A DNA stretch of 64,000 nucleotides from Magnetococcales bacterium (lineage in GTDB: Bacteria > Pseudomonadota > Magnetococcia > Magnetococcales > UBA8363), in NCBI GenBank assembly GCA_015228975.1, contig JADGCN010000002.1:6323-70322 (forward strand), read 5' to 3'. Every line of letters begins with the position of its first letter. Position 1 is the first letter of the stretch. Of the stretch, positions 7,025 through 25,783 are shown in pieces. The notes under the pieces are model-generated. The model saw only the letters and a program-made list of their open reading frames with translations, ran no database searches and was not told the DNA's origin. The position numbers and the translations under genes are program-made.

Positions 7025-7156
7025 CCAAACCCCTCCTTTATACAGTCGATGGCGGTGTGATTGACGACTGACATGTTATTATTGGTTCAATAATTGCAAA
7101 GACGCCTCCGTTTGGTGTAATCGTCATTGACCCAGTCCAGTCCTGAGAATTTTCCC

Positions 7157-10100
7157 ATGAAAAGAATGCTTCTAACTTTCGGAATTCTGACTCTCTGTTT
7201 TTCGATTGTCATGGGCTCAGATGCCTTGACTTTAAGTAACTTATCCGGCCAATCACTTGCCAATATTAATGATCCAAAAACATTGAAAATGTTACAAGGG
7301 GCCAAGCCCGGTCTCGTCAATCCCCAGGACTATCGCCGGGACAATCGGCGCAGGGATAAACCGGATACCGTCAAAAATCCAGAGGAAATACCAGCAGAAC
7401 TTCTGGAAACTCCAGAAAAAAAACCAGCGCCATTTTATGTTGAGACCTATCCGGAAGATTTGCCCATTTTCGGTCAGGATCTTTTTGTTGACAAGTACAG
7501 AAATGCCCCTGTGAAAGACGTGACTGCCACGGTTCCAGGTGATTACGTCATTGGTCCAGGTGATACGTTTCGCCTGTTGTTTTCCGGCAAGGACTTTAAG
7601 GAAGTTGAGGTTGCCGTGGATGGTGAGGGGATGGTTTTTGTTCCCGATATGGGGATGTTCCCCGTGACTGGTTTGCGGTTTAACGAATTTAAAACCTTGT
7701 TGGTCAGTCAAACCAAACAAAAATTGATTGGTTATGAATTGACGCACGTTGCACTTTCTTCGCTACGTACCATGAAAATTTTCCTGCTTGGCAACGTAAA
7801 AAATCCGGGAACGCATCAAGTTCCCTCCCTGACCTCCCTGATGCAATTGTTGATTGAAACAGGGGGTATTCTTCCCGTTGGTTCTTTGCGTAATGTGCAG
7901 ATCAAACGCAACGGCGTGCCCGATAAAACAGTCGATCTTTATAATGTTTTATTGAGTGGTAAAGGAGATGGCGAGATTCGCCTTCAGGATGGTGATACGG
8001 TGTTTGTGCCAATGATCGGCAATACCATCGCCTTGACCGGAACTGTCAAAAAACCAGCTATTTATGAAATCGCCAAGGAAGAAACGATTGCTGATATTGC
8101 CCAGCTTGCTGGAGGATTTCTACCTAACGCCCAGTTTATCAAAATAGAGCGTATTGATGATAATAAGAATCGTACCATCGTCGATCTTAATTTAGCGAAA
8201 AAAGAGAGTTTGCGTACCGCTATCAGATCGGGTGATATCGTCCACGTTTTACCATCGTCCGACTCCAGAAAAGAGACGGTCACTTTGACGGGCTATATTG
8301 ATCGCGGCGGGGTGTTTCAGTGGTATAAAGGGATGAGGTTGTCCGATATCATTCCCAGTCCCGATATTTTGTTGCCCCAGACCGACCTGTCGCACTACTT
8401 GGTCGTTCGCACCAACATGAAGAATCGTCAACTGGAACCGCTCTCAGCCAATCTGGAGCGTGCCCTGAGTGATCGGGCTTCGGCAGACAATATTCTTCTC
8501 CAACCCAATGATCAGATTCAATTGTTCAGCATCAGCGCCGATCATTCTAAAAATTTGCAGTCTGTTGTGGAAAAATTACGTAATCAAGGGAGATTCAACA
8601 ATACCGACAAGCTCGTGTCCATTGAGGGCAATGTTCGTTTTCCAGGGGAATACCCTTACGTTCCCAATATGAGTTTGAAACAGTTGATTATGGCTTCTGG
8701 GGATATGCGTTCCAACACCGATCTGGACTATTGTCTGATCGTCCGCTCCGATTATATGGGGCGCATCCAACCCTTTTCAGTTCGTTTGCGCGAAGTATTT
8801 GGTATGGAAGGTGTTGCAAAGAATATAGCTCTTAAACCAAAGGACAAAATTTTGGTTTTTACGCTTGATGAAAAACAAAAAGTAAAAAATTCTGACAATA
8901 ATAGTGAAAAAGGTATGCCAGCGGATGAATCGGAAGAAAAGAACACAGTTTTTTCCGGAACATCAAAAGAGAACTCTCGCAAAATTCCAGGACAAAATGT
9001 GCAAGGGTTGGACATCGATCAATGGTCGATCGATGCCTTGAAAAAGGCCAAGGACAAAAAAGGGAATATCCAGGAACAAAACGAGGAACATGAGGAAGCG
9101 GATGGACAAAAACTTCCCAAGCAACCTGGTAGTGCAAAAGGCGTTGATATTGCCCTGGAAAATGAAGAGATGGAAAATGTACTGGTAGGGTTCCTCCTGA
9201 AGAATTCCACCTCCGATCCCGTCGAAAACCGCAGCAATGAGGCCTATCGCAACCAATTGGTCGATCCAGCATTGCATGAGAATCAAAGTCGACTTTTGCA
9301 ATTGCTGCTGAAAAAACGGGACCTGCGGCAAATGGTGCGAGAGGAGTTGCAACCCGTTAAAGAAAAAGCGGTCAAATCGCGCCAAGCCTTGTTAAAACCC
9401 GTTTTAGAAAAATTGCAAGATCAGGCCACCAAAGAATTTCCAGCGCAGATCATTCAAATTGGTGGTGCGATCCGCTATCCCGGCAAATATCCCCTGGAGC
9501 CTGGAATGCGTATCAGCAACCTTTTATTGGCGGGTGGTGGATTGGCAGAACCGGCTTATCATCTTGAAGCCGAAATCAACCATTTTGAGGTGGATGACAA
9601 TCAGTTCACCAGAATGCATCATGCCAGCGTCAACCTGTTTAAAATTACACAGGGTGACCCCACCATGGACCAGGCGTTGCAGCCCTATGATATTATTATT
9701 GTCAAACAAAATCCTAAATGGGGCGACATTAATTCGGTGATGCTGGAGGGCAATGTGCGCTTTCCCGGAATTTATCCGATTCAAGCTGGGGAAAGATTAA
9801 CCCAGGTGCTAAAAAGGGCCGGTGGCCTTACAGAATTGGCTTATCCCGAAGCCGCCGTGTTTACCAGAACAAAGCTTATCGAAAAAGAAAAGCGGGAGAA
9901 CGAAAGTCTGATCGCTCGCATGGAGACCCAATTGGTTCAGTCCCAGTATATGAAGCAGACTGAGAAAGAATCGGATACCCTCAATCCCAACTCGGCCATG
10001 ATCCACGAGCTTATTGCCAAACTTAAAACGGCAAAACCGATTGGTCGATTGGCGATTGATATGAACCAAGTCATGAGCAATCCCGGTGGGCAATACGATG

Positions 10101-10501
10101 TCATGCTTCAAGATGGTGACCATCTTATTATTCCGCAGCGGACTGATGAGGTCACTGTCATGGGCGAGGTCTATTTTCCCACTTCCCACCAATTCATTGG
10201 AGACAAGGATCTGGAAGCCTATATTCAGGCCAGTGGTGGTTATACCAGCAATGCGGATGATAGCCGGGTTTATGTCGTTCGGGCGGATGGCCGGGTGACT
10301 TCGAAAAAACAGCCCGGGAAATTTCCTGTTGTCGGCTGGTTTTCGTCCAGCAACGCCATTACAATCGGACCGGGGGATACCGTTGTTGTCCCTATGAATG
10401 TCGAAAAAGTGGCCCCCATGGTTCTTTGGAAAGATATCACCCAAATTTTGTATAATTTGGCCGTTACTTCCTCCGCCCTGAAGTCGGCTGGTGCCCTGTA
10501 A
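7157..10501 (+). CDS. Very large outer-membrane polysaccharide export (OPX/Wza-KpsD-like) protein with multiple SLBB domains
   Basis: Signal peptide MKRMLLTFGILTLCFSIVMG from ATG 7157. Poly_export-like block (YVIGPGDTFRLLFSG..VAVDGEGMVFVPDMGMFPVTGL). At least five repeats of the SLBB pattern (G.V..PG.Y......L..L...AGG). Contains a charged low-complexity insert at about 8866-9440. Confidence 0.85.
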   Translation: MKRMLLTFGILTLCFSIVMGSDALTLSNLSGQSLANINDPKTLKMLQGAKPGLVNPQDYRRDNRRRDKPDTVKNPEEIPAELLETPEKKPAPFYVETYPEDLPIFGQDLFVDKYRNAPVKDVTATVPGDYVIGPGDTFRLLFSGKDFKEVEVAVDGEGMVFVPDMGMFPVTGLRFNEFKTLLVSQTKQKLIGYELTHVALSSLRTMKIFLLGNVKNPGTHQVPSLTSLMQLLIETGGILPVGSLRNVQIKRNGVPDKTVDLYNVLLSGKGDGEIRLQDGDTVFVPMIGNTIALTGTVKKPAIYEIAKEETIADIAQLAGGFLPNAQFIKIERIDDNKNRTIVDLNLAKKESLRTAIRSGDIVHVLPSSDSRKETVTLTGYIDRGGVFQWYKGMRLSDIIPSPDILLPQTDLSHYLVVRTNMKNRQLEPLSANLERALSDRASADNILLQPNDQIQLFSISADHSKNLQSVVEKLRNQGRFNNTDKLVSIEGNVRFPGEYPYVPNMSLKQLIMASGDMRSNTDLDYCLIVRSDYMGRIQPFSVRLREVFGMEGVAKNIALKPKDKILVFTLDEKQKVKNSDNNSEKGMPADESEEKNTVFSGTSKENSRKIPGQNVQGLDIDQWSIDALKKAKDKKGNIQEQNEEHEEADGQKLPKQPGSAKGVDIALENEEMENVLVGFLLKNSTSDPVENRSNEAYRNQLVDPALHENQSRLLQLLLKKRDLRQMVREELQPVKEKAVKSRQALLKPVLEKLQDQATKEFPAQIIQIGGAIRYPGKYPLEPGMRISNLLLAGGGLAEPAYHLEAEINHFEVDDNQFTRMHHASVNLFKITQGDPTMDQALQPYDIIIVKQNPKWGDINSVMLEGNVRFPGIYPIQAGERLTQVLKRAGGLTELAYPEAAVFTRTKLIEKEKRENESLIARMETQLVQSQYMKQTEKESDTLNPNSAMIHELIAKLKTAKPIGRLAIDMNQVMSNPGGQYDVMLQDGDHLIIPQRTDEVTVMGEVYFPTSHQFIGDKDLEAYIQASGGYTSNADDSRVYVVRADGRVTSKKQPGKFPVVGWFSSSNAITIGPGDTVVVPMNVEKVAPMVLWKDITQILYNLAVTSSALKSAGAL

Positions 10502-10729: not shown

Positions 10730-12793
10730 ATGAAAAATTTGTGGTCGGAGGAAGCGGCGCAACAATGGGTTGTTCAATACGCACCTCGTTGGGGTGAACC
10801 TCTGGCCCTGAGAACTTACTCAAGCAGACTGTTGGGCAGTCATCCCGAATTGGTACTTCATGGCGGTGGTAATACCTCGGTCAAAGGGGAAGTCACGGAT
10901 ATTTTTGGTCAAACCATAGCCGGTGTTTTTATCAAGGCTTCTGGGGTCAATCTGGCGCAATGCTTACCAACCGATCACCCGGCACTCAACCTGAATGCCC
11001 TGCAGAAACTCACATTGTTGGACACTCTGTCGCCCTCTGCCATGGTGAATCAATTACGTTTAAACCTGTTTGATTCAGGCGCTCCGACTCCTTCGATTGA
11101 AGCGTTGCTGCATGCTTTTCTGCCCCCGGTTTTCATTGATCACACCCACCCTGACGCTCTCCTGACACTGGGCAATCAACCGGATGGTCGTCAGCGTCTT
11201 ACAGATGCCTTGGGGTCCGATTGTATCATTCTGGACTATATCCACCCTGGATTTGAATTGGCCAAAGCGGTTCTTGCCGCCTGGAAGGCCCAACCTAACG
11301 CCACCGGGATGGTTTTGCTGCATCATGGTCTGCTGACCTGGGGCGATTCGGCGCGGGAATCCTATGAAGCGACGTTGGCGCTGGTGAATCGTGCCGAACA
11401 GGCCATTAACGCCGTTGCCCAAAAAGTATTGCCGGTTCCAACACCGGCAGCCCTCTGGTGGGAATTGGCTCCTGTCCTTCGCGGTGCTTTGGCCGTACAT
11501 GCCGAAGATTCTAACCGTTCGTATAAAAGTTATATCGTACGTTCTTTGGATGATTCGGAAACCTTGAGTCTGTTGCACCAACCGGATGCCGCCAAGCTTT
11601 TTGTCAGTGCTCCATTGACCTCGGATCATCTGATTCGTTGTAAGCCATGGCCATTGTGGATTGATAATCTTGGGGAAATCAGGGAGGCGGTACAACGTTA
11701 CCGGGAAGACTACCACAATTATTTCCTGCGCCATGCCGCATCGTTGGAAGGTTCGGTGCAGCCATTGGATTCATCGCCCCGGGTGGTATTGATTCCTGGT
11801 GTTGGTGGGTTTGTTGCGGGAGAAAGTGCCCATTTGGCCGATGTCGCCCGGGACATTACCCGACAAACTCTCAGGGTCAAAACCGATATCGCCCGCATGG
11901 GGAGTTATTGCGGTCTTGAGGAACAACACCTGTTTGCCATGGAATATTTTTCATTGCAGCATGCCAAGCTTGTCCGCCATGAAACATCAGGACTTCAGGG
12001 GTGCGTGGCCATCGTGACCGGGGCTGCCGGGGCGATTGGTTCCGGTATTTGTCGCAGGTTGCTCCGGGAAGGGGCGCATGTTGCCGCAACCGATTTACCG
12101 GGGGATGCCCTGGACACTCTGGTGCAGGGGCTCGCCAAGGGAACACCCGGTCGCATCATGGGCGTGGCCATGGATGTGACGGATGAAGTCTCAGTGGCCC
12201 AAGGGATCCAAAAAATTGTACAAACGTGGGGGGGAATCGATTGCGTGATTATCAATGCGGGACTCGCCCATGTGGCTCCTCTCGCATCCTTGGGATTGGA
12301 AACATTTCGTAAGCTGTACCGCGTCAATGTCGAAGGAACCTTGCTGTTGTTATCGCATATGGCCAGGCTGTTTGAACGGCAGCGAACCGGGGGGGATGTC
12401 GTGGTGATTTCGACAAAAAATGTTTTTGCCCCGGGAGCCAGCTTTGGTGCTTACAGCGCCACCAAGGCGGCATCGCACCAACTGGCTCGCATTGCGTCTC
12501 TGGAACTGGCCCCCTTGGATGTTCGGGTCAACATGGTGGCCCCGGATGCCGTTTTTTCGGATGGTGCCCGTAAATCGGGGCTGTGGGCTGAAGTCGGTCC
12601 CGACCGGATGCGCGCCCGCGGCCTGGATGAAGCGGGGTTGGAAAATTATTATCGCAATCGTAATCTTCTGAAAGCCCAGGTGACTGCTGACCATGTTGCC
12701 AATGCGGTGCTGTTTTTTGTGACCCGGCAAACCCCCACGACAGGTGCGACCATCCCGGTGGATGGGGGGTTGCCCGATGCCACACCACGATAA
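10730..12793 (+). CDS. Bifunctional class II aldolase / short-chain dehydrogenase fusion protein
   Basis: 687 aa. N-terminal aldolase/adducin-like half (LVLHGGGNTSVK..VFIDHTHPDA). C-terminal SDR half (AIVTGAAGAIGSG..NAG..YSATKAA). Architecture matches rhamnulose-1-phosphate aldolase/alcohol dehydrogenase-type fusions. Confidence 0.85.
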   Translation: MKNLWSEEAAQQWVVQYAPRWGEPLALRTYSSRLLGSHPELVLHGGGNTSVKGEVTDIFGQTIAGVFIKASGVNLAQCLPTDHPALNLNALQKLTLLDTLSPSAMVNQLRLNLFDSGAPTPSIEALLHAFLPPVFIDHTHPDALLTLGNQPDGRQRLTDALGSDCIILDYIHPGFELAKAVLAAWKAQPNATGMVLLHHGLLTWGDSARESYEATLALVNRAEQAINAVAQKVLPVPTPAALWWELAPVLRGALAVHAEDSNRSYKSYIVRSLDDSETLSLLHQPDAAKLFVSAPLTSDHLIRCKPWPLWIDNLGEIREAVQRYREDYHNYFLRHAASLEGSVQPLDSSPRVVLIPGVGGFVAGESAHLADVARDITRQTLRVKTDIARMGSYCGLEEQHLFAMEYFSLQHAKLVRHETSGLQGCVAIVTGAAGAIGSGICRRLLREGAHVAATDLPGDALDTLVQGLAKGTPGRIMGVAMDVTDEVSVAQGIQKIVQTWGGIDCVIINAGLAHVAPLASLGLETFRKLYRVNVEGTLLLLSHMARLFERQRTGGDVVVISTKNVFAPGASFGAYSATKAASHQLARIASLELAPLDVRVNMVAPDAVFSDGARKSGLWAEVGPDRMRARGLDEAGLENYYRNRNLLKAQVTADHVANAVLFFVTRQTPTTGATIPVDGGLPDATPR

Positions 12794-12808: not shown

Positions 12809-15800
12809 ATGTATTCGCCCCGTCGCGACAAAATCAGATTATTGGATGAAGAATTGTTTCACAATCTGACCTCGTTTTCCGAACTTGAGGCCAGAATTTT
12901 CAGTTTGGATGATCCAGAACGGCGGAAAAGTGCTTTTGCCATTTTTGCCGAAGGTTTTTTGGCCTTGCGTTCCATGCCAAGAAGCGCGGAAATATTGCCA
13001 ACCCATCGGTTGCATGATAATCATTATCATAATCTTTGTATTCCCAAGACCTTGACCGGGGTTGATGGGCTTTTGTTCATGGCCGAGAGTGGTTGTCATC
13101 CCTACCATCTCCTGTTGCATGATCCACGATCGGAAGTTTCTGCGGAAACAATGGCCCCGTTTGCGCGTCTTTTGGAGCAAAGCCATTGGCCCCTGCTGTT
13201 TACCAATCTGCGTCAACTTCCCATGCATTGGTTGGAGCGTGATGGATTCCAACACATCACCGGAAATCAACTGGATGGATTGACCATTCCATGGTTTTCC
13301 TATTTTTTGCGTTGGTTGCAAAGTGGTACGCCATCCCGGCGCCCCACCTTGCCGTCAGAACCCATGAGCGAAATGATGCAACGCGTTCGCGCAATTGTTC
13401 CGGGTGTGGCCACGGTAACCTTACCGGATGGACCCATTCAGGATGAGTGGCTGTTTCACCTGGCGGTGAGCCCTGGACCCAAACGAATGACCTTGATTTT
13501 GACCCCGGGGGCGGGCCGCATCCTCGATCTGTTGCACCACTGGCGCAGACTGACGCCTCCAGTGCCATTATCATGCCTTTGGGTTGTTTCGGGAAAGGAA
13601 TGGGATAAAAGTGAAAATCTTCTTCCCGGGGAGATGGATTTTCTTCGGGTCCAGGATGTTGCAGGCATCCGTCACTTTTTGACCAGTCGTGATGGCAATC
13701 CCAGGATTCTCTGGGCGACTTTCGCCGCCATTCCCATGTTGAAAAAGGCGCAATTGGGACTATCTCCCTTTGAGCTGACAGTGGTACTCGACAGTCATGT
13801 GCTGGCCCAACAGAGCAAATTGTATGAAACACTTTTGGCGCAAGAATTTCCCGTATCGCGGTTGCGCCTGCATGTGACTTCATTGCCACGCTGCACGACC
13901 CCATTTAAAAAAAATCGCCAGGAGCAGCCCGTTACCCTGTTCGCCATGGAAGACGATCAGCGGTTTGGTATTCCCGTTCGCTTCAGCATTGCGCCGAAAC
14001 ACCGCGAATCCTTTGCGGGGCGGGATTGGAAATTGGTTGTGGTACCTATCCAAAGTGACATGTTGCATCATCCAGAAACCTGTGTGGTCCATGCCCTGTC
14101 GCGCTCGCGTACAATTCAGCCCAACATCCATCATGTTCACATTCCACTGGATTGGAATGTTTCCGATACGGTTTCGGTGTCTGACCTCGGGGAGTTCGTT
14201 ACGAGAACCAGTAACACAGCATGGGATGTCCTGACTTGGTCTAAAGAGGTGCGCCATTTTTCCCGGTTGGATCGGGCACTCCTGCGTATTGCTTCGATTC
14301 CTGGCCCTGTTCGCCATCTGGCAACGTGCGATTTGGCCTTGTTATCGTTTGATCCCGGTCAGGTCACTGCCTCGATTTACGAACGTCTGAGCGCCATCAT
14401 GCGTCCCCATGCGGAGGCACGCACGGGGATTGCCGCTTCCTTGGTGGTGATTGATCACATGTTTGAAGATGCCGAATCTTCCATGCGTCCCGACCTCGCT
14501 GCCCTTTGTCTGGTGGTGCAAGCGTTGCGCGATATGGATCCCGAATTTGATCAGGCATTCTTTGAGGCGCGCCGGCATCGAGGTCGTACCGGTTCATTCA
14601 ACCTGGAACCCCTGCGGCGTTGGTTGCACGTTGCCGATTCCGGCACCAATGACGGTGCGAACAAATTATTGGAATGGTTGCTGACCACCCTGACTTCTCC
14701 ATGGGATCAATCTTTGGGAGAATTCATGCGCTTCCATGAACAATGGGGTTCTGCCGAGGTTGCGGAAGCGGGGGATGATCATTCCCAACTTGCGGCTTGG
14801 GTAGAAGTGCAACGCCGGGCGCGGGTCAAAGGCTGGCTGACTCGGGAACACATCACGCAACTGGATGCGTTGGGATTTGTCTGGGATCCGAAAAAATTGG
14901 CCTGGGAACGCATGCTGGCTGCGTTGAAAATCTTTCAGGCCCGTCATCGGCATTGCAATGTCCCTGATCCCTATCCCGAAGTGGATGCTTTGCCCCTGTG
15001 GGTCAAGCAACAGCGCCGGGATCTCCTTCAGGGACGTTTGCTTCCGGTTCAGAAGGAACAATTGGATGCCCTGGGATTCATTTGGGATCTGGAAGCCTGG
15101 GAATGGGAACAGTGTTATAGCCGATTGCTCCGATTGAAGCCTGTGACCAACCCTGCCAGGATCACCGTGCCATGTCACCAGGATCCTGAGTTGGGGGAAT
15201 GGGCTGATCGTCAGCGTCTGTTATGGCAAAAAGAACGTTTGGATGAAAATCGACGCCAGCGCCTGGAGGCCGTTGGTTTTGTCTGGGATCTGGAGGCGAC
15301 CGAATGGCAAGAGCAATTTCAAAGATTCCGGATGATCGTGGTAACATTGGGTCGTTGGCCGGGCATCGATCATCCGATTTTGGATGAATTGCGTCCATGG
15401 TTGGAAGAGCAACGACAATTAAGGGCCAAAAATCGCCTGCATCCCGCCCGTTGTAATCAACTCAATGCATTGGGTTTCATCTGGTCAACACGACAAGAAC
15501 AGTGGCAACGGTTGTTTGATCGCTTTGTCTCTTTCAAACGACTCCACGGCCATGGCCTCGTTCCTGAGCGGTATTCCGAGGATCCAGAGCTCTCTTCCTG
15601 GGTCCAGGATCAACGGCGGGACTATCGGCGTCGGGTCATGGTTGAAGAGATCCATAGCCGATTGGCCATGGTAGGCTTCGTTTTTGATCCACAAGCCTAC
15701 CATTGGGACAGGATGCTGGCTCTCTTTGAACGTTACCAACGTCACCACGGTGATGATGATCCCGTGGCGGTGAACCCGCTGTACGCCCCTCTGAAAGATT

Positions 15801-16912
15801 GGATGGCCAGTCAACGGCGCATGCAGATGTCGGGTCGGTTGCCGGAAACAGAGCGGGACAAACTGACCCGGTTGGGTTTTGTTTGGGACCCGGCGGCCAA
15901 ACATGAACAAACAATGCTCAATGCCTTACGTCGTTTCATGGAACAATACGGTCATTGTAACATTCCTGCCGATTACAACCACCCGCCCACCTTGTCGAGC
16001 TGGGTCCGAAAACTTCGGACCCGCGGGATAACGGGCGGATTATCCCAGGAATTGATTGATCATCTTGATCTGATGGGGTTTATCTGGGACGCACGCGAGG
16101 CCGAATGGCAGGAAATGTTTCATGCCCTGAAGCAATTCAATCAGGAACGCCACCATTGTATTGTTCCCGATCCTTACCCGGTTCATCCCAGGCTGCCGGC
16201 TTGGGTCAAAAATATTCGTAAAATTTATAAAAACAATGCATTGGATAAGGAAAAAACGGAAAGCCTCAACCAATTGGAGTTTGTTTGGGACGAAAAGGCC
16301 GTTTTTTGGGAAGAAATGTTTGTCGCCCTGGCAGCGTATCATGATCGATTTGGACACAGTTTGGTGCCGGAAAATGATAGCCAACATGCGCGACTGGCTT
16401 GGTGGGTTGCGGCGCAGCGCAAGGCCAGGGCTGGGGGGCAGTTGGATGAAAAACAAATCCAACGCTTGGATCGGCTCCATTTCGTCTGGGATATCCATAG
16501 TGCCCAATGGTTGGAAATGTACCGGGAGTTGTTCTTCTTCCACCAACGTCACGGCCATTGCCTGATCAAAAATGATTCTCCACATCACACCCGCTTGAAT
16601 GACTGGTGTGCCATTCAGCGCAAGGCCAGAATGATGGGAAATCTATCCGAGGAAAAACAGGCGCGTCTCAACACCTTGGGGTTCATTTGGGATGCCAAGG
16701 AAATGGTCGCTGCCGAAATGCTGATGTACCTGGAACAGTATAAGGAACGTTTTGGTCATTGTAATGTTCCGGCACAATGGCCAGAAAATCCACAATTGGG
16801 ATTATGGTTGCAGTTCCAGCGCCAATCCTATCAGAAAGGTCAACTGGATCCTGAACGGCGCTCCAAATTGGAAGAGATGGGAATCCTTTGGGATGAGGGA
16901 GATAAACGGTGA
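12809..16912 (+). CDS. Helicase-associated (HA) domain repeat protein with a degenerate nuclease/helicase-like N-terminal half
   Basis: 1367-aa uninterrupted ORF. The C-terminal 736 aa are 11 tandem copies of about 67 aa of the pattern W..ML..L..F....GHCNVP.......L..WV..QR......G.L......L..LGF.WD (HA domain, PF03457-like). The N-terminus LTSFSELEAR..ERRKSAFAIFAEGFL resembles the head of COG4889-type predicted helicases. Confidence 0.85.
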   Translation: MYSPRRDKIRLLDEELFHNLTSFSELEARIFSLDDPERRKSAFAIFAEGFLALRSMPRSAEILPTHRLHDNHYHNLCIPKTLTGVDGLLFMAESGCHPYHLLLHDPRSEVSAETMAPFARLLEQSHWPLLFTNLRQLPMHWLERDGFQHITGNQLDGLTIPWFSYFLRWLQSGTPSRRPTLPSEPMSEMMQRVRAIVPGVATVTLPDGPIQDEWLFHLAVSPGPKRMTLILTPGAGRILDLLHHWRRLTPPVPLSCLWVVSGKEWDKSENLLPGEMDFLRVQDVAGIRHFLTSRDGNPRILWATFAAIPMLKKAQLGLSPFELTVVLDSHVLAQQSKLYETLLAQEFPVSRLRLHVTSLPRCTTPFKKNRQEQPVTLFAMEDDQRFGIPVRFSIAPKHRESFAGRDWKLVVVPIQSDMLHHPETCVVHALSRSRTIQPNIHHVHIPLDWNVSDTVSVSDLGEFVTRTSNTAWDVLTWSKEVRHFSRLDRALLRIASIPGPVRHLATCDLALLSFDPGQVTASIYERLSAIMRPHAEARTGIAASLVVIDHMFEDAESSMRPDLAALCLVVQALRDMDPEFDQAFFEARRHRGRTGSFNLEPLRRWLHVADSGTNDGANKLLEWLLTTLTSPWDQSLGEFMRFHEQWGSAEVAEAGDDHSQLAAWVEVQRRARVKGWLTREHITQLDALGFVWDPKKLAWERMLAALKIFQARHRHCNVPDPYPEVDALPLWVKQQRRDLLQGRLLPVQKEQLDALGFIWDLEAWEWEQCYSRLLRLKPVTNPARITVPCHQDPELGEWADRQRLLWQKERLDENRRQRLEAVGFVWDLEATEWQEQFQRFRMIVVTLGRWPGIDHPILDELRPWLEEQRQLRAKNRLHPARCNQLNALGFIWSTRQEQWQRLFDRFVSFKRLHGHGLVPERYSEDPELSSWVQDQRRDYRRRVMVEEIHSRLAMVGFVFDPQAYHWDRMLALFERYQRHHGDDDPVAVNPLYAPLKDWMASQRRMQMSGRLPETERDKLTRLGFVWDPAAKHEQTMLNALRRFMEQYGHCNIPADYNHPPTLSSWVRKLRTRGITGGLSQELIDHLDLMGFIWDAREAEWQEMFHALKQFNQERHHCIVPDPYPVHPRLPAWVKNIRKIYKNNALDKEKTESLNQLEFVWDEKAVFWEEMFVALAAYHDRFGHSLVPENDSQHARLAWWVAAQRKARAGGQLDEKQIQRLDRLHFVWDIHSAQWLEMYRELFFFHQRHGHCLIKNDSPHHTRLNDWCAIQRKARMMGNLSEEKQARLNTLGFIWDAKEMVAAEMLMYLEQYKERFGHCNVPAQWPENPQLGLWLQFQRQSYQKGQLDPERRSKLEEMGILWDEGDKR
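14702..16909 (+). repeat. 11 tandem, diverged, roughly 201-nt coding repeats (HA domain array)
   Basis: Each unit ends in LGF(V/I)WD or a variant (ALGFVWD, ALGFIWD, AVGFVWD, ALGFIWS, MVGFVFD, RLGFVWD, LMGFIWD, QLEFVWD, RLHFVWD, TLGFIWD, EMGILWD). 2208 nt divided by 11 gives about 67 codons per unit. Confidence 0.85.
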
Positions 16913-17949
16913 AAAAGGGGGATCCCATCGGTGGCCAGGTTACTGATCAGTCAACGATACTTTCAATGATTCACCAGGCGTGTGCTGAAAGCCAACAGAT
17001 ACGTCTACTTATGGACCATCAGTTCCTGGAATATGTCACCCATTTTAAAACTGGTACCGAACCGGATGAATTTTTATATCTCCATGTCGGGGGTTTGGTG
17101 CCCCGCGTTGGCAATATTAAAATTCGCAAAAGTCATGTGATTACCATCACCTTCCTGATTGCCGACCGTGTTGCGGAAACCAAGGTACGCTTTCTGCGGG
17201 CGGTGACCAAAGAGATGTTTCGTCTGTCTTTTCCCAAATATGTGAAAATGATGGCGCAAAAGCGTTCAGCCGTCCGGGTCGCTCCCGGGTCCGCCATGAA
17301 GATTTCACTCACCATCATCCGGTCCGATGGGATGGAATTGGCGGCCCAATTGGTGGACATCAGTGCCGAAGGCTTGTCATTCCTCTTTGAAAAATCAGAG
17401 TACTACCTCCCCAAGGAGGCATCCGTTCAAGTCGTGCTTTCATGTGAGGATGGATGCTTCCACACTACTGTGGATGCCATGGTTGTAGGTCATGTATCGC
17501 GGGATATGGTTGAAGGGTATCGGGCCAAATTTATTTTTACCACTGTGGACCAAAGCATGCGGATCGGGGAATTGGTCGCTGGCATCCAAAGCCAAATTTT
17601 ACAACATCGTATCCAGGTATCTGGTGAGGAAAAGATCAAAACCTGGGAGGTGAAAACATTGGGTAAGGAGGATATTTCGACCTCATCCTTTGAGGATTGG
17701 CATGATCGATATTACAGTCAATGGATGGATAAAGCTTATTTTGCCGCATGGATCGGAAACATCCTGAGTATGTGCGCGGGATTCTTGATTGCCTTGAATC
17801 TTTATGTTCATTGGGCGTATCCCCTTTTAATCGTGGCCTCATTGGTGATGGGGATGGGATTATCGGCACGGCATCGCTCGTTTCCTCTTTTGTTTGTTGG
17901 TTTCATTCTGTTATTAGGCGTCATTGGAACCATGCGTGTGTGGTGGTAA
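16909..17949 (+). CDS. Membrane-anchored PilZ-domain (c-di-GMP receptor-type) protein
   Basis: 346 aa. The GTG start overlaps the upstream stop (GTGA). PilZ signature RxxxR (QKRSAVRV) followed by DxSxxG (DISAEGLSF). Hydrophobic C-terminal helices (AAWIGNILSMCAGFLIALNLYV, LLIVASLVMGMGL, LLFVGFILLLGVIGTM). Confidence 0.75.
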   Translation: MKKGDPIGGQVTDQSTILSMIHQACAESQQIRLLMDHQFLEYVTHFKTGTEPDEFLYLHVGGLVPRVGNIKIRKSHVITITFLIADRVAETKVRFLRAVTKEMFRLSFPKYVKMMAQKRSAVRVAPGSAMKISLTIIRSDGMELAAQLVDISAEGLSFLFEKSEYYLPKEASVQVVLSCEDGCFHTTVDAMVVGHVSRDMVEGYRAKFIFTTVDQSMRIGELVAGIQSQILQHRIQVSGEEKIKTWEVKTLGKEDISTSSFEDWHDRYYSQWMDKAYFAAWIGNILSMCAGFLIALNLYVHWAYPLLIVASLVMGMGLSARHRSFPLLFVGFILLLGVIGTMRVWW

Positions 17950-18890: not shown

Positions 18891-18928
18891 CAAAAACAAA
18901 CAAGCCCTGGATTGACGAATCCAGGGCT
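18891..18928 (-). terminator. Rho-independent terminator of the atp operon
   Basis: Perfect 12-bp stem AAGCCCTGGATT / AATCCAGGGCTT (18901-18912 and 18917-18928) with a 4-nt loop. On the minus strand it is followed by the T-rich run GTTTGTTTTT (18900-18891). Lies 72 nt after the atpC stop. Confidence 0.7.
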
Positions 18929-18999
18929 TGCTGGGTGCAAAATACTGCCAATGAGACGTTCTTGCCATCCATGTCATGTCGGTCGGAGCCGTCGAAAAA

Positions 19000-19419
19000 C
19001 TACAGCCTCTTCAACAGTTTTGAAATCGATGCAATTTGCTCGGCCATGGCGGCGAATTCGCCTTGAGCCCGTGCAAAGTTGATATCGCTCTTAATATTGA
19101 CCACGGCTTCCTGGGCTTCTCGCCTTGCATCCGCAGCCATGGCGGCATCCAGGTCAGCGGCACGTACTATGGAATCGGCCAACACGGTGACAGCATTGGG
19201 ATGGATCTCAAGGATGCCCCCCGCAACGTAAAAGATCTCTTCTGGGCCAACATTTTCCACTTTGATGCGAACCGTGCCGGGTTTAATGCGCGTGATCAAC
19301 GGTGCATGTTTGGGATAAATGCCGAGTTGCCCCACATCCCCAGACAAGATTAAATATTCAGCCTTGCCGGAAAAGATGGATTCCTCAGCACTGACGACAT
19401 AGACTTGCATGGTGCTCAT
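19000..19419 (-). CDS. atpC: F1 ATP synthase epsilon subunit
   Basis: [43 protein letters not shown] matches epsilon. The upstream ORF-track start at 19455 is probably an extension. Confidence 0.92.
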
Positions 19420-19498
19420 AGTGGCTGACCTTGTCGCAGATAGGGGGCTCGGCAACTGGCGGCGTCATCCACCACCAGGACCACCGACCACAAGCGTA

Positions 19499-20908
<1,410 letters not shown>

Positions 20909-20965
20909 TTAATTTATATCATCTATGGTTTGTGACAATACGAACACCGATGCGAAAAACAGATC

Positions 20966-21838
20966 TTATGCGATGGCGGCTGCGCCTCCGACAATCTCCG
21001 AGAGTTCCTTGGTAATCGCCGCTTGCCGCGCTTTGTTGTAACTCAACTGCAAAAGCTCAATAACCGATTTGGCATTATCAGAAGCAGCCTGCATGGCCAC
21101 CATACGTGCGGATTGTTCGGAAGCCATGCTTTCGGTTACGGCCTGGTAGACCAAGGCCTCAATATAACGCACCAAAAGCTCATCCAAAACAAGTTTGGAA
21201 TCCGGCTCATAGATATAATCCCAACTGTACCCGGAATCTTTTTTCACCGTATCAGGCGGAAGAGGCAGCAGCTGGAGCATTCGTGTTTTTTGCACCATGG
21301 TATTGATGAACTGTGAATAAGCCAAGTAGACAACATCGACCTGACCTTCCACATAGGCGTCCAATTGAACTTTGATAGCCCCGATAAACTTATGCATATG
21401 TGGGACATCGCCCATATGGACAACATGTGATATTATCTTAACGCCAAGCCGATTAAGAAAGTTAAAGCCTTTTTGGCCAATGGCCGTGGCCTGGAGGGTA
21501 ATTCCAGCCTGTTCCAACTCTTGCATTTTTGCTGTTACGGAACGCAGAACGTTGGTATTCAAGCCACCACATAAGCCTTTATCGGTGGTCACCACAATAA
21601 ATCCCGCCCCTTTGACCTCCTTGCGTCGCACTAAAAAGGGGTGGCGATATTCTGGGTTTGCACTGGCCAAATGCGCAGCAATGCGCCGCACCCGTTCTTC
21701 GTAAGGACGCGCGGCACGCATGCGATCCTGAGCACGGCGCATTTTAGAAGCCGCAACCATTTCCATGGCTTTGGTAATCCGGCGCGTACTCTGCACACTC
21801 TTAATTTTGGAGCGGATCTCTTTTGAACCGGCCATCAC
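20966..21838 (-). CDS. atpG: F1 ATP synthase gamma subunit
   Basis: 290 aa. [32 protein letters not shown]-terminus and [15 protein letters not shown]-terminus. Confidence 0.97.
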
Positions 21839-21908
21839 CTTCTTCCCTTGGACTCTCGACTATCCGAGCTACCTGTTCGCTTCTGGCTAACAGGGGTACA
21901 TGCAAGCC

Positions 21909-23450
21909 CTAGTAGACCCCTGTTTCCTTGAATTCCTTGACCGCAGCATGCAAAGCAGCCGTTGAACTTTCTGTCAGTTCTTTGTCGCGCTCTATGACTG
22001 TGATCAGCTCCATGTGTTTATTTTCCATGAAGGCACGCATGGATTTCTCACAGGCTTGGGCCTTTTTGACATCAACATCGTCATAGTAGCCATTGTTGAC
22101 GGCAAATAACACCAGCGCCATCTCCCAGACTTGCAATGGTTGGTACCGTGGTTGTTTCATCAATTCGGTTACCATCCGTCCCCGCTCAAGCTGCTTGCGG
22201 GTTGCTTCATCAAGGTCGGAGGCGAACTGTGCAAAGGCGGCCAGTTCCCGATATTGCGCCATGGCGAGACGGACGCCACCACCCAAACTCTTGATGATTT
22301 TCGTCTGTGCGGCACCACCCACGCGGGAGACCGAAATACCCGCATTAATTGCCGGGCGAATACCCGCATTGAACAGATCGGTTTCCAAGAAAATCTGTCC
22401 ATCGGTAATGGAAATGACGTTTGTCGGCACGAACGCTGTAACGTCACCCGCTTGCGTTTCAATGATCGGCAAAGCAGTCAGTGAACCGGTCTTACCCTTG
22501 ACCTCACCCTTGGTGAATCTTTCAACATACTCGGCATTCACCCGGGCTGCACGCTCCAGCAAGCGACTATGGAGATAAAACACGTCGCCAGGATAAGCCT
22601 CACGACCTGGAGGGCGGCGCAGAAGCAGGGAAATTTGCCGATAAGCCACCGCCTGTTTGGATAAATCGTCATAAACGATCAGGGCGTCTTGACCGCGATC
22701 CCGAAAATATTCCCCCATGGTGCAACCGGAATATGGGGCCAAGTATTGCAGGGCGGGAGCTTCGGAAGCAGTGGCCACGACAATGATGGTATAGGCCATG
22801 GCACCGCTTTCTTCCAGTTTGCGGACCACACTCCGGATTGATGAAGCCTTTTGACCAATCGCCACGTAAATACAAATGAGATCTTTCCCAGCCTGGTTGA
22901 TGATCGCGTCAACAGCCACAGCCGTCTTACCCGTTTGCCGGTCGCCGATGATCAACTCGCGCTGGCCACGTCCGATGGGCACCATGGCATCAATGGCTTT
23001 CAAACCGGTCTGCACTGGTTGCGAAACCGATTTACGCTCAATCACACCCGGTGCCACCTTTTCGATGACATCCGTCATTTCAGCATTGATCGGCCCCTTG
23101 CCATCCGTTGGCCGGCCCAGGGCATCGACAACGCGTCCGATCAACTCAGGTCCAACGGGCACTTCCAGGATGCGTCCGGTGCAACGGACCACGTCCCCTT
23201 CGGTGATATGCTCATATTCGCCCAAAATAACCGCACCAACCGAGTCACGCTCCAGATTGAGCGCCAAGCCGAACACATTACCCGGGAACTCCAGCATCTC
23301 GCCCTGCATGACATCTTCCAAGCCGTAGATGCGGCAAATGCCATCGGACACCGAAACAACGGTCCCCTGCGTTCTCGCCTCGGTCGTCACCCCCAATTTT
23401 TGTATTTTCTCTTGCAGCAGATCGCTGACTTCGGAAGGATTCAGTTGCAT
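21909..23450 (-). CDS. atpA: F1 ATP synthase alpha subunit
   Basis: 513 aa. P-loop GDRQTGKT. Full-length alpha. Confidence 0.98.
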
Positions 23451-23612
23451 AGGTACACCTGGTTGACAGTCCAGTTAATAAGCAATTTATCGCCAATGGA
23501 TTATTTCGGACACACTCCGAGAAAAATCAACCCAACGCGATGTTCATAAAACGTCGATCTCCTGCAATCAATCCGCGTACTTGTTCCCATCCGACCGGCC
23601 AAAAAATGTGAA

Positions 23613-24149
23613 TCATGCGGTCAGACTGGCGTAGAGCGCCTCCAGCTTGGCCTGAACCGAACCATTCATCACTTGGTCACCAACGACAACTTTGACGCCG
23701 CCAATCAACGCGGCATCTACGACCACCTGGACCTGAACCGACCGACCAAACTTTTTTGTCAAACGCTGGGTCAAAGTTTTCAACTGTTTGTCGGCAACCG
23801 GCAATGCCGAGTAAACAATTGCGTCAACTGTCCGTTCTCGCTCATTTTTCAAGGCTTCAAACTGGGCGGCGATGGCCGGCAGCAGGGCTATTTTCTTGGC
23901 ATCTACAAGCATGTGTAGGAAAAAACCAGCCTCTGTGGAAAGATCGACAGAGATCAATGAGGTCAGTAAGGTCACCCGCTGCGTTGCACTCAAGTGTGGG
24001 TTGCCCAAGGCGCGACGGACACCTTCTTGGCTCGCCAATTCCGCCAACGCCGTTAACGCCTGGGACCACTCGACTAATTTGCCACTTGCCTCAGCCGCTG
24101 CGAAAGCAGCTTTCGAGTAGGGCCGTGCGACTGTCGCCAACTCAGCCAT
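23613..24149 (-). CDS. atpH: F1 ATP synthase delta (OSCP) subunit
   Basis: 178 aa. VARPYSKAAF start and position between b and alpha. Confidence 0.9.
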   Translation of the reverse strand: MAELATVARPYSKAAFAAAEASGKLVEWSQALTALAELASQEGVRRALGNPHLSATQRVTLLTSLISVDLSTEAGFFLHMLVDAKKIALLPAIAAQFEALKNERERTVDAIVYSALPVADKQLKTLTQRLTKKFGRSVQVQVVVDAALIGGVKVVVGDQVMNGSVQAKLEALYASLTA

Positions 24150-24619
24150 TACAGTTCATCCCGGAGCTGATTCAGAAGTTCAGTATGGGCTTTCGGGTCG
24201 ATTTCCCGACGTAAAATCCGTTCGGCACCCAGGACGGCCAGTCGACCAACTTCTCGACGCAGGGCATCTTTGGCTTTGGCGGTCTCGATTTCCGCCGTTT
24301 CCCGTGCGTGGGTAATAATGCGTTCGGCTTCGACTTTGGCACGTTCCTTGGCATTGTCAATGATCTGAGCGGCACGTTTTTCGTGCGCCGTAATGATATC
24401 GACAGCTTTGCTACGTGCCTCTGCCTCTATGACGCCAACGCGATCCTGAGCTTGATCAAGGCTTTTCCTGCCCTCATCAGCAGCAGCAAGCCCTTCTGCG
24501 ATGTATTTCTGGCGGTCTTCTATAGCCTTGAGCAAGGGCGGCCAGACAAACTTCACCGTGAACCAGATGAAGATCCCGAAGGCGAAGGCCTGCGAAAACA
24601 GAGTGAGATTGATATTCAT
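24149..24619 (-). CDS. atpF: Fo ATP synthase b subunit
   Basis: 156 aa. One N-terminal TM helix followed by a long charged helix (RQKYIAEGLAAADEGRKSL..). Confidence 0.9.
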   Translation of the reverse strand: MNINLTLFSQAFAFGIFIWFTVKFVWPPLLKAIEDRQKYIAEGLAAADEGRKSLDQAQDRVGVIEAEARSKAVDIITAHEKRAAQIIDNAKERAKVEAERIITHARETAEIETAKAKDALRREVGRLAVLGAERILRREIDPKAHTELLNQLRDEL

Positions 24620-24658
24620 GTCAGCACCCTAGCGAGGGATAATCCATTAGGCCAGTGG

Positions 24659-24973
<315 letters not shown>

Positions 24974-25783
24974 TCAATGGCTCTCATGGGCCATCGCGAT
25001 ATAGACGACGGTCAACATCATAAAGATGAATGCTTGCAGGGCAACGATCAAGATGTGAAAAATGGCCCATCCGGCACCCAAAACAATGCCAAAAAATGTC
25101 CCAACCATACCCGTTGCCGCCCACATTCCGAGTAAGAGGAATATGATTTCACCAGCATACATGTTTCCATACAACCGCAGCGAATGCGACAAGGGCTTGG
25201 AAATCAGCTCCACGACATTGAACAGGAAATTGAGAACCCACAATGCCGGATGTTTACCAAATGGGGTGCAGAAGAGTTCATGCATCCAACCGCCAAGGCC
25301 CTTCACTGCGATGTTGAAGTATATCATGATCATCCAGATCGTCAATGCCAGTGCAAAGGTGGTATTGACATCGGCTGTGGGCACGCCACGGAAATGATCC
25401 ACATGCATCAAGCGCTCGTAAAATCGCGACATGATGTCGACTGGCAAAAAATCCATGGAGTTCATGAGAAACACCCAGACAAAAACGGTCAGGGCTGTTG
25501 GTGCAACAAACTTATGCTGATCCCCATGAAAAATACTGCGTACTTGACCATCGACAAATTCAAATGCCAGTTCGACAAAAGCCTGGCGTTTGCTCGGCAC
25601 GCCGCTGGTCGCACCATTCACAACCGTATACAGGAAACCGAAGCCGACAATTCCCAATAGCACAGCAATCAAAAGGGAATCAACGTGGACGACCCAGAAT
25701 GGGCTGTCACCCAGTGGCTTGGCCAACTGAGTCAGGTGGTGGTCTATATAAGACGTGGGTGTAAGCATTTGTTCTGTATTCAC
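24974..25783 (-). CDS. atpB: Fo ATP synthase a subunit (gamma/beta-proteobacterial type)
   Basis: 269 aa. [14 protein letters not shown] contains the essential Arg. Confidence 0.95.

What the first reader, a model, noticed from the sequence alone, without database searches (positions are those of the whole stretch)
14702..16909. Eleven tandem helicase-associated (HA) domain repeats in one polypeptide
Seen in sequence: the C-terminal 736 aa consist of 11 consecutive units of about 67 aa. Each unit has the pattern W..(M/L)(F/L)..L..(F/Y)....GH(C)NVP....(P/H).L..WV..QR......G.L......L..LGF.WD. The units are diverged at DNA level, so this is not a recent duplication or an assembly artefact. Established knowledge: HA domains (PF03457) usually occur once or a few times at helicase C-termini, and their function is unknown. 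Inference: an array this long suggests a solenoid-like scaffold or a multivalent nucleic-acid- or protein-binding surface.
Basis: partly seen in the sequence, partly recalled or inferred. Interest (0 to 1): 0.65.

Follow-up and report, generated by a model that had tools for sequence, protein, structure and literature searches.

The report
Dead helicase carrying eleven HA repeats
The eleven repeats are real HA domains, but arrays this long are normal in this protein family; the unusual point is that the nuclease-helicase engine they are attached to has lost every catalytic motif yet is still conserved, so the repeat array probably now works alone as a binding platform.

Summary
ORF 12809-16912 (+, 1367 aa) ends in 11 head-to-tail HA units (Pfam PF03457, 11 stretches, E 1e-135). 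The period is exactly 67 aa (one unit has 66). Units are about 29 % identical in protein and 43 % in DNA. The 1367-aa form is on record in four Magnetococcales MAG entries.

Eleven copies is not exceptional: enzymatically intact relatives carry 1-15.

The N-terminal 626 aa, which match no Pfam family, are a degenerate copy of the Mrr-nuclease + SF2 ATPase module of Type ISP restriction enzymes (LlaGI/LlaBIII) and of HA-helicases. The nuclease lysine and helicase motifs Q, I, II, III, V and VI are all lost.

About 15 such "dead" proteins form one clade and carry 8-13 HA units. Their units are near-neutral in charge and strictly 67-aa periodic. The named members are all Magnetococcales.

dN/dS is 0.13 for both halves. 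In 8 of 9 distinct loci the gene lies directly downstream of a bifunctional aldolase/SDR gene.

Best reading: a domesticated pseudo-enzyme whose HA array is a static, multivalent binder. DNA is the likeliest ligand, by analogy with the module it replaces; this is unproven.

New variant of a known kind; moderate interest.

The parts
12809..16912 (+). Whole gene, 1367 aa: degenerate nuclease-helicase module followed by 11 HA units. It equals NCBI MBF0138739.1, 'helicase associated domain-containing protein', Magnetococcales MAG.
12809..13333 (+). aa 1-175: remnant of an Mrr-like PD-(D/E)xK nuclease domain. GVDG (aa 84-87) is kept. The (Q/E)xK motif YQVK of intact relatives reads YHLL (aa 99-102), so the catalytic Lys is lost.
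   Evidence: Alignment with intact relatives. Mrr_cat_2 hits in relatives P0016 and P0071. Coordinates.
13334..14008 (+). aa 176-400: RecA1-like lobe with degenerate motifs. Motif Q: PHQ becomes PSEPMSE (13352-13372). Motif I: MACGTGKT becomes LPDGPIQDE (13421-13447). Motif II: FDEAH becomes VVLDSH (13781-13798). Motif III: TATPRH becomes HVTSLPR (13871-13891).
   Evidence: The dead-clade profile hits LlaGI 5FFJ and LlaBIII 4XQK over this stretch, E 1e-5.
14009..14470 (+). aa 401-554: RecA2-like lobe with degenerate motifs. Motif V: NARCLTEGVDVP becomes LRIASIPGPVRH (14282-14317). Motif VI: QATGRAMR becomes ERLSAIMRP (14381-14407). This is the least conserved part among orthologues (37-44 % identity).
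14471..14686 (+). aa 555-626: helical extension after RecA2 (LRDMDPEFDQA...RGRTG). It is conserved in dead and intact relatives and weakly alignable to LlaGI residues 416-491.
14687..16894 (+). HA array, 11 units of 67 aa (unit 4 has 66). Unit starts: 14687, 14888, 15089, 15290, 15488, 15689, 15890, 16091, 16292, 16493, 16694. Each unit is predicted as three helices (about 20, 14 and 9 residues).
15290..15487 (+). Unit 4 (66 aa, lacks the GH motif). Its last 40 aa are orthologous to unit 5 of the 12-unit orthologues. This lineage therefore has one unit fewer at this point in the array.
16091..16894 (+). Last four units (they correspond to units 9-12 of the 12-unit orthologues). This is the best conserved block: the units matching orthologue units 10 and 11 are 75-82 % identical between orthologues. 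It is the only block with recognisable positional orthology across most of the dead clade.
10730..12793 (+). Upstream gene: bifunctional class II aldolase / short-chain dehydrogenase (NF006194, 842 bits against a cut-off of 686). Its stop lies 15 nt before the HA gene's ATG. The gene pair is conserved in 8 of the 9 distinct dead-clade loci examined.
   Evidence: 26, 27, 54, 55, 68, 69, 71, 72
16909..17949 (+). Downstream gene: PilZ-domain protein with a hydrophobic C-terminus. Its GTG start overlaps the HA gene's stop by 4 nt (GTGA), and a GAGGGAG Shine-Dalgarno-like stretch lies upstream. An ORF of the same length and position is seen in L003. Present only in the window lineage.
   Evidence: absent in L002 and L004

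Best explanation
The gene encodes a domesticated, enzymatically dead descendant of the HA-helicase family.

In intact members, an N-terminal Mrr-type nuclease plus SF2 translocase is followed by an array of HA three-helix domains. This nuclease-translocase module is the same one that drives Type ISP restriction enzymes such as LlaGI and LlaBIII. The HA array sits where Type ISP enzymes carry their methyltransferase and target-recognition domains.

In the window protein the nuclease lysine and helicase motifs Q, I, II, III, V and VI are all destroyed. It therefore cannot be expected to hydrolyse ATP, translocate or cut. Even so, both halves are under purifying selection, and the gene is fixed in a housekeeping region directly behind a bifunctional aldolase/SDR gene.

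What remains functional is a binding device:
- 11 units (10-13 in relatives), each individually conserved.
- A strict 67-aa period.
- A basic second helix in every unit.
- A conserved four-unit C-terminal block.

Most likely the array binds nucleic acid, probably double-stranded DNA, statically and multivalently, with the dead motor serving as a structural platform.

Shown: the homology, the motif loss, the selection, the synteny and the array anatomy.
Inferred: DNA as the ligand, and the static binding mode.
For: Homology of the N-terminal 626 aa:
- An exhaustive profile search gave 636 hits, 144 of them at E <= 1e-10, many covering profile positions 3 to about 620.
- Those hits are Mrr_cat_2 + ResIII/DEAD + Helicase_C + HA proteins.
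- Intact relatives match the PADLOC Type IIG/ISP nuclease-ATPase profile at E 1e-85 to 1e-92. P0016 matches LlaBIII (4XQK) at E 2e-54.
- The dead-clade profile itself hits LlaGI and LlaBIII at E 1e-5.

Motif loss:
- Column-by-column alignment with intact relatives.
- No ResIII, DEAD or Helicase_C Pfam hit, and no PADLOC hit.

One clade:
- All 15 dead proteins are monophyletic in an NJ tree.
- All carry 8-13 HA units, against a median of 5 in intact relatives (Mann-Whitney p 7e-7).

Selection:
- dN/dS is 0.137 for the N-terminal part and 0.130 for the array, window against L003.

Gene pair:
- The aldolase/SDR gene lies immediately upstream in 8 of 9 distinct dead-clade loci (the exception is).
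- It is not next to the intact relatives examined.
- The surrounding genes are housekeeping genes.

Array anatomy:
- The period is exactly 67 aa in 79 % of dead-clade intervals, against 19 % in intact relatives.
- Units are individualised. The commonest residue at a given position of a given unit is shared by about 85 % of orthologues on average, against about 29 % identity between units.
- Helix 2 carries a net charge of +1 to +4 in every unit, +31 in total.
- Terminal units are positionally orthologous across the clade but not in intact relatives.

HA as a DNA binder:
- Paper titles and statements, and the match to 2KTA.
Against: - No binding experiment exists for this protein or any member of its clade.
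- HA units of the dead clade are on average uncharged (-0.4 per unit), whereas units of the other relatives average +2.7. That shift is in the wrong direction for a DNA binder and fits a change of ligand.
- The AF2 model gives pTM 0.41, so a rigid superhelix is not established.
- The N-terminal fold was not confirmed structurally (pLDDT 41).
- The conserved neighbour is a metabolic enzyme, not a DNA-related gene.
- The single origin of the dead clade rests on an NJ tree with long branches.
- Only the best 150 of 636 hits were examined.
Confidence: 0.55

Rival explanations
1. Protein scaffold. After the motor died, the HA array was re-used as a protein-binding helical-repeat platform, in the manner of TPR or HEAT proteins. 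It may organise the co-encoded bifunctional aldolase/SDR or other partners, and it no longer binds nucleic acid.
For: - Loss of net positive charge per unit (-0.4 against +2.7).
- A deeply conserved adjacency to the aldolase/SDR gene while all other neighbours change.
- A strictly regular period typical of packed solenoids.
- The weak Foldseek matches are all alpha-solenoid protein binders (not significant).
Against: - Every unit keeps the basic helix 2 with the invariant Arg and the Q-R motif typical of HA domains.
- No precedent is known for HA domains as protein binders.
- Adjacency may reflect co-transcription only.
Confidence: 0.25
2. One reading: an active helicase whose unusually long HA array adds a multivalent nucleic-acid-binding surface to a working motor.
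For: Architecture of the family. NCBI names the protein 'helicase associated domain protein'.
Against: - The Walker A Lys, the DExH box, TAT, motif V, the motif VI arginines and motif Q are all absent.
- No helicase Pfam family scores.
- The array length is ordinary for the family.
Confidence: 0.03
3. Decaying relic of a defence or mobile-element helicase: an open reading frame that is still intact but has no function.
For: - Intact relatives resemble restriction-enzyme modules and are abundant on plasmids.
- The RecA2-like region is only 37-44 % conserved among orthologues.
Against: - dN/dS is 0.13 in both halves.
- Full-length orthologues exist in at least nine loci spanning 21-57 % N-terminal identity, with conserved synteny.
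- No frameshifts were seen.
- The gene sits in a housekeeping neighbourhood.
Confidence: 0.04
4. Assembly artefact: the copy number of 11 comes from collapse or expansion of a repeat during assembly.
For: The closest sister orthologues have 12 units.
Against: - Units share only about 43 % DNA identity, far too little to mis-assemble.
- The 1367-aa form recurs in four MAG protein records and in L003.
- The missing unit is an exact in-register absence.
Confidence: 0.02

Closest known systems
HA-domain SF2 helicases (Mrr_cat_2 + ResIII/DEAD + Helicase_C + HA x n). According to bioRxiv 10.1101/2024.11.13.623437, this kind includes the Streptomyces subtelomeric conjugation helicase TtrA.
   Same: Same domain order and homologous over the whole length. 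For example, P0016 matches the N-terminal profile at E 9e-35 over positions 3-607. The C-terminus is a tandem HA array.
   Different: - All catalytic motifs are lost.
- The array is strictly 67-aa periodic and uncharged.
- The gene is chromosomal, in a housekeeping region, and paired with an aldolase/SDR gene rather than lying on plasmids or in variable regions.
- No direct comparison with a TtrA sequence was made.
[quoted passage not shown]
   Same: The N-terminal nuclease plus SF2 ATPase module is homologous. The Type ISP domain order is Mrr nuclease, ATPase, coupler, methyltransferase, target-recognition domain (PMC4666363).
   Different: - There is no methyltransferase and no TRD; the HA array takes their place.
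- The nuclease and ATPase motifs are dead, so the translocation-collision cleavage mechanism cannot apply.
BVU_0683 HA domain, PDB 2KTA (Mills et al. 2013, PMID 23160728)
   Same: Each unit is homologous to it (E 2e-10 with the unit profile). AF2 predicts three helices per unit.
   Different: In 2KTA a single domain was solved (74 aa; per the paper's title, residues 627-691 of its parent protein). Here there are 11 contiguous units with no linkers.
Modular helical-repeat nucleic-acid readers (TAL effectors, PUF, PPR). This is an analogy only.
   Same: Tandem helical units with a fixed period, each individually conserved, with a roughly neutral overall charge and one basic face.
   Different: There is no sequence or demonstrated structural relationship. 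A one-unit-one-site reading code is pure speculation here. The unit is 67 aa, not 34-36.

Membership tests
Pfam PF03457 HA (helicase-associated) domain | Scores above the Pfam gathering threshold | tested here: met
   442.4 bits against a cut-off of 28.4; 11 stretches
Pfam PF03457 HA (helicase-associated) domain | Small all-alpha (three-helix) fold homologous to 2KTA | tested here: met
   The unit profile hits 2KTA at E 2e-10. AF2 gives three helices per unit at pLDDT 85.7. This is a prediction, not a solved structure.
Pfam PF03457 HA (helicase-associated) domain | Binds DNA, as proposed for the family | not testable with these tools
   Literature statements only. Helix 2 is basic in every unit, but the net unit charge is about 0.
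SF2 helicase / translocase (ResIII-DEAD + Helicase_C) | Sequence homology to the two RecA-like lobes | tested here: met
   The profile search retrieves ResIII + Helicase_C proteins over the full length. LlaGI and LlaBIII are hit at E 1e-5. The window protein itself scores for no helicase Pfam model.
SF2 helicase / translocase (ResIII-DEAD + Helicase_C) | Walker A, motif I: GxGK(T/S) | tested here: not met
   MACGTGKT in intact relatives aligns to LPDGPIQDE
SF2 helicase / translocase (ResIII-DEAD + Helicase_C) | Walker B, motif II: DExH | tested here: not met
   FDEAH aligns to VLDSH here and to LPDSH or MPDSH in orthologues
SF2 helicase / translocase (ResIII-DEAD + Helicase_C) | Motif III (TAT), and motif VI (QxxGRxxR) with the arginine finger | tested here: not met
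   TATPRH aligns to TSLPRC. QATGRAMR aligns to ERLSAIMR.
Type ISP restriction-modification enzyme | Mrr-type nuclease with a catalytic D...(E/Q)xK | tested here: not met
   GVDG is kept, but YQVK reads YHLL, so the Lys is lost. The Lys is lost in all dead-clade members shown in the alignment.
Type ISP restriction-modification enzyme | Gamma-class adenine methyltransferase and target-recognition domain C-terminal to the ATPase | tested here: not met
   Only HA domains follow the ATPase-like region. The PADLOC Type IIG profile is matched only over positions 18 to about 655-671 of 1646 by intact relatives, and not at all by the window protein.
Type ISP restriction-modification enzyme | Coupler domain between the ATPase and the recognition module | tested here: inconclusive
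   Residues 555-626 are conserved across the family and align weakly to LlaGI 416-491 (second stretch, not significant)
TtrA-like conjugation / telomere helicase of Streptomyces | Helicase with tandem HA domains | tested here: inconclusive
   The architecture matches. No TtrA sequence was available for a direct comparison. Related HA-helicases are abundant on Streptomyces plasmids (430 of 842 records).
TtrA-like conjugation / telomere helicase of Streptomyces | Subtelomeric or plasmid location with a role in conjugal transfer | tested here: not met
   The gene lies among hemC, tsaD, gpsA, the atp operon and purD. Synteny is conserved in MAGs.
Known anti-phage defence systems (PADLOC-DB 2.0) | A match to any defence-protein profile | tested here: not met
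   0 families at E <= 0.01 for the window protein

The most novel reading that the evidence does not exclude
The dead clade may be a restriction-enzyme-derived module turned into a new kind of bacterial helical-repeat reader or scaffold. Two versions are possible:
- A TALE-like static DNA reader, in which the 10-13 individualised 67-aa HA units lie along an extended specific DNA target.
- A scaffold that physically couples the co-encoded aldolase/SDR to DNA or to another structure in magnetotactic cocci.

In either version the HA array would have a function that is independent of any helicase. That would also explain what HA arrays do in TtrA, in TniQ fusions and in nuclease fusions.
Probability: 0.12. 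Interest if true: 0.75.

Novelty: new variant of a known kind. Interest (0 to 1): 0.5.

Why it matters
HA domains are widespread, and their function has hardly been tested. They occur in hundreds of plasmid-borne helicases, in Streptomyces TtrA, in TniQ targeting proteins of telomeric transposons and in nuclease fusions.

This clade is a natural separation-of-function variant. The motor and the nuclease are dead, yet the HA array has been kept, regularised and held under purifying selection. The array must therefore do something useful without ATP-driven translocation.

That makes the clade a clean system for three questions:
- What do HA arrays bind?
- Does the 67-aa unit form a superhelix that tracks DNA?
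- How does a Type ISP-like restriction module become a housekeeping protein?

The link between HA-helicases and the Type ISP nuclease-ATPase module also suggests that the HA array is the target-recognition part of the intact enzymes.

Tried and rejected
1. The search for homologous proteins with the N-terminal 626 aa alone, and with an 11-sequence dead-clade alignment, returned nothing. The query proteins themselves are in that database. I treat this as a limit of the word filter, not as absence. The exhaustive profile search found 636 relatives.

2. AF2 of the N-terminal module with 4 sequences gave pLDDT 41. It is unusable, so no fold search was made with it.

4. My first guess that LILTPGAGRI was a degenerate Walker A was wrong. 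The alignment shows it is motif Ia. The real motif I remnant is LPDGPIQDE.

5. I first read window unit 4 as a hybrid of orthologue units 4 and 5. Only its last 40 aa can be assigned, to unit 5. The first helix is equally distant from both. Whole-unit scoring says unit 4 is the one missing. The direction of change (loss here or gain in the sister lineages) is only weakly resolved in favour of loss.

6. The genome-contig scan found only four close Magnetococcales loci, because the back-translated patterns were specific to the close orthologues. It does not define the taxonomic range.

7. The promoter and terminator scan around the gene was no better than shuffled sequence.

8. The Mills 2013 paper on 2KTA is not held in the library. 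Only its title and later citations could be used.

9. A literature search for Magnetococcales plus 'helicase associated' found nothing.

Full report
**1. The observation**

The finding lies in one ORF, window 12809..16912 on the + strand, 1367 aa.
- Pfam scores PF03457 (HA) at 442 bits (cut-off 28.4, E 1.2e-135) in 11 stretches. It scores nothing significant for the first 626 residues. NCBIfam adds nothing.
- The units end at aa 693, 760, 827, 893, 960, 1027, 1094, 1161, 1228, 1295 and 1362. The period is 67 aa, and one unit has 66.
- The units align with a single one-residue gap.
- Mean identity between units is 29 % in protein and 43 % in DNA. Tandem Repeats Finder sees no array in the DNA.
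- The exact protein is NCBI MBF0138739.1 from a Magnetococcales MAG. Three more 1367-aa proteins from MAG records fall in the same 90 % cluster. Locus L003 (95 % nt identity) also has 11 units.

**2. Is eleven unusual?**

It is not unusual for this family. I searched 1.84 billion representative proteins with a profile of the N-terminal 626 aa, so the hits were not selected for HA content. The search gave 636 hits, 144 of them at E <= 1e-10.

I counted HA units in the best 150 with an HMM built from the window units and their orthologues. The counts agree with Pfam on 7 of the 8 proteins checked and differ by one unit on P0016. Among 69 full-length, enzymatically intact relatives the count runs from 1 to 15, with a median of 5. 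One Luteolibacter protein has 15.

**3. What the N-terminal half is**

The hits are Mrr_cat_2 + ResIII/DEAD + Helicase_C + HA proteins.
- Their first ~630 residues match the PADLOC profile REase_MTase_IIG at E 1e-85 to 1e-92, over profile positions 18 to about 655-671 of 1646.
- P0016 matches LlaBIII (4XQK) at E 2e-54 and LlaGI (5FFJ) at E 8e-50.
- The window-clade profile alone hits LlaGI and LlaBIII at E 1e-5.
- Type ISP enzymes are single chains of Mrr nuclease, SF2 ATPase, coupler, methyltransferase and DNA-recognition domain (PMC4666363).

HA-helicases therefore share the Type ISP nuclease-motor module. They carry the HA array where Type ISP enzymes carry the methyltransferase and TRD.

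**4. The motor is dead**

Intact relatives aligned column by column with the window protein (coordinates):

| Motif | Intact relatives | Window protein |
|---|---|---|
| Nuclease | GVDG...YQVK | GVDG...YHLL |
| Q | PHQ | PSEPMSE |
| I | MACGTGKT | LPDGPIQDE |
| II | FDEAH | VLDSH |
| III | TATPRH | TSLPRC |
| V | NARCLTEGVDVP | LRIASIPGPVRH |
| VI | QATGRAMR | ERLSAIMR |

Traces such as P-G-(T/S) at motif I in relatives show that the alignment is sound.

Among 90 full-length relatives, 16 sequences lack all of these motifs. They represent 15 distinct proteins, since P0001 is 98 % identical to the window protein. Those 15 form one clade in an NJ tree, with the caveat that the branches are long. 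All carry 8-13 HA units (median 10), against a median of 5 for intact relatives (p 7e-7). The members that carry an organism name are all Magnetococcales.

**5. It is maintained, not decaying**

- dN/dS between the window and L003 is 0.137 for the N-terminal part and 0.130 for the array.
- Full-length orthologues exist at 21-57 % N-terminal identity.
- The gene sits among hemC, tsaD, gpsA, the F1Fo ATP synthase operon and purD.
- In 8 of 9 distinct dead-clade loci it lies directly downstream of a bifunctional class II aldolase/short-chain dehydrogenase gene. In the window that gene scores 842 bits for NF006194, and the gap is 15 nt. The loci are the window and its near-identical L003 (counted as one), L001/L006, L002, L004, L007, L008, L010 and L011/L012. 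The exception is L009.
- All other neighbours differ between loci.
- Two intact relatives have no such neighbour. One of them, P0016, sits in two different contexts in two genomes.
- Intact family members are abundant on plasmids: 842 records, 430 of them Streptomyces.

This is the pattern expected for a mobile or defence-type enzyme that was domesticated.

**6. Anatomy of the array**

- AF2 with 7 sequences gives pLDDT 85.7. Each unit has three helices of about 20, 14 and 9 residues. The pTM is only 0.41, so the packing between units is not established.
- Foldseek finds nothing similar in the PDB. The only solved relative is the single HA domain 2KTA.
- In the dead clade 79 % of unit-to-unit intervals are exactly 67 aa, against 19 % in the other relatives, which have linkers of variable length.
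- Mean net charge per unit is -0.4 in the dead clade and +2.7 in the others.
- Within the window protein the charge is polarised. Helix 2 carries +1 to +4 in every unit (+31 in total). The helix 1-2 loop sums to -16, and helix 3 with its tail to -18.
- Units are individualised. At a given position of a given unit the commonest residue is shared by about 85 % of orthologues on average, while different units share about 29 % identity.
- The units that correspond to orthologue units 10 and 11 are 75-82 % identical between orthologues. The RecA2-like region is only 37-44 % identical.
- Unit 1 and the last four units are positionally orthologous in most dead-clade proteins. The middle units vary in number and cannot be assigned. 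No such correspondence exists with intact relatives.

**7. Eleven versus twelve**

The five closest diverged orthologues (P0002, P0003, P0004, L004, L005) have 12 units. The window lineage corresponds to units 1, 2, 3, 5..., 12. Its unit 4 (66 aa, without the GH motif) matches orthologue unit 5 over its last 40 aa at 65-70 %, against 33-38 % for unit 4.

The more distant P0006 seems to keep both units 4 and 5. That favours a loss in the window lineage, but the scoring margins are small.

**8. How it most likely works**

Shown:
- A dead nuclease-motor module.
- A conserved, regular, individualised HA array.
- Purifying selection on both halves.
- A fixed gene pair with the aldolase/SDR.

Inferred:
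- In intact relatives the array occupies the position of the Type ISP target-recognition module.
- HA domains have been published as DNA binding and are used as the variable specificity part of TniQ and nuclease fusions.
- The array is therefore most likely a nucleic-acid-binding device.
- With the motor dead, it would bind statically and multivalently through the basic helix 2 of each unit, with the last four units as the conserved core.

The main rival is that the array changed ligand and is now a protein scaffold, possibly for the co-encoded aldolase/SDR. The loss of net positive charge and the metabolic neighbour speak for this rival. My estimates are about 0.55 for the best explanation as a whole, of which the 'dead, domesticated' part is about 0.85 and DNA as the ligand about 0.4. 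The protein scaffold gets about 0.25.

**9. Comparison and novelty**

The protein is a member of the HA domain family. It is a degenerate homologue of SF2 helicases and Type ISP enzymes, but it fails every catalytic feature that defines them. It matches no PADLOC defence profile. I found no paper describing HA proteins in Magnetococcales. Within the library searched, I also found none describing motif-dead HA-helicases or the relation between HA-helicases and Type ISP enzymes.

I rate it a new variant of a known kind, of moderate interest. The repeat number itself is ordinary. The dead motor, the regularised array and the conserved metabolic neighbour are not.

Noticed in passing
window 16909-17949 (+): A PilZ-domain protein (346 aa) with a hydrophobic, probably membrane-spanning C-terminus. 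Its GTG start overlaps the HA gene's stop by 4 nt (GTGA), and GAGGGAG lies just upstream. It is present only in the window lineage: L003 has an ORF of the same length at the same place. In L002 an SDR gene follows directly, and in L004 the next ORF is unrelated and was not identified by any search.
   Followed up: partly
window 10730-12793 (+); L001, L002, L004, L007, L008, L010, L011: The bifunctional class II aldolase/SDR gene (NF006194) is the only neighbour that stays with the dead-helicase-HA gene across very divergent loci. In three of those loci (L007, L008, L010) a DeoC-family aldolase gene precedes it. The substrate and the reason for the linkage are unknown.
   Followed up: partly
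window 7127-10501 (+): A very large (1124 aa) Wza-like polysaccharide export protein with Poly_export, SLBB_2 and at least four SLBB domains. It lies upstream of the gene pair in the window, L001, L002 and L003, but not in the more distant loci.
   Followed up: no
L013 and L014 (protein P0016): The identical intact HA-helicase protein sits in two different gene neighbourhoods in two MAGs, each time near the end of the fetched DNA. In one it lies next to small UPF0175/DUF3368 genes. This suggests the intact enzymes are mobile.
   Followed up: no
L009 10875-12354 (-); L007 893-1162 (+): Small toxin-antitoxin-like genes lie close to the dead-helicase-HA gene in some Magnetococcales loci: two HEPN/nucleotidyltransferase pairs in L009 and a ParE toxin gene in L007.
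   Followed up: no
tool behaviour: the search for homologous proteins returned no hit for the N-terminal 626 aa or for a dead-clade N-terminal alignment. The full-length query found the same proteins, and exact look-up shows they are in the collection. A negative result from that tool should not be read as absence for queries of this kind.
   Followed up: yes
window 19000-25783 (-): A complete-looking F1Fo ATP synthase operon (epsilon, beta, gamma, alpha, delta, ..., a subunit) lies convergent with the HA gene cluster. A 15-bp-stem terminator-like hairpin at 18899-18932 sits between the two.
   Followed up: no
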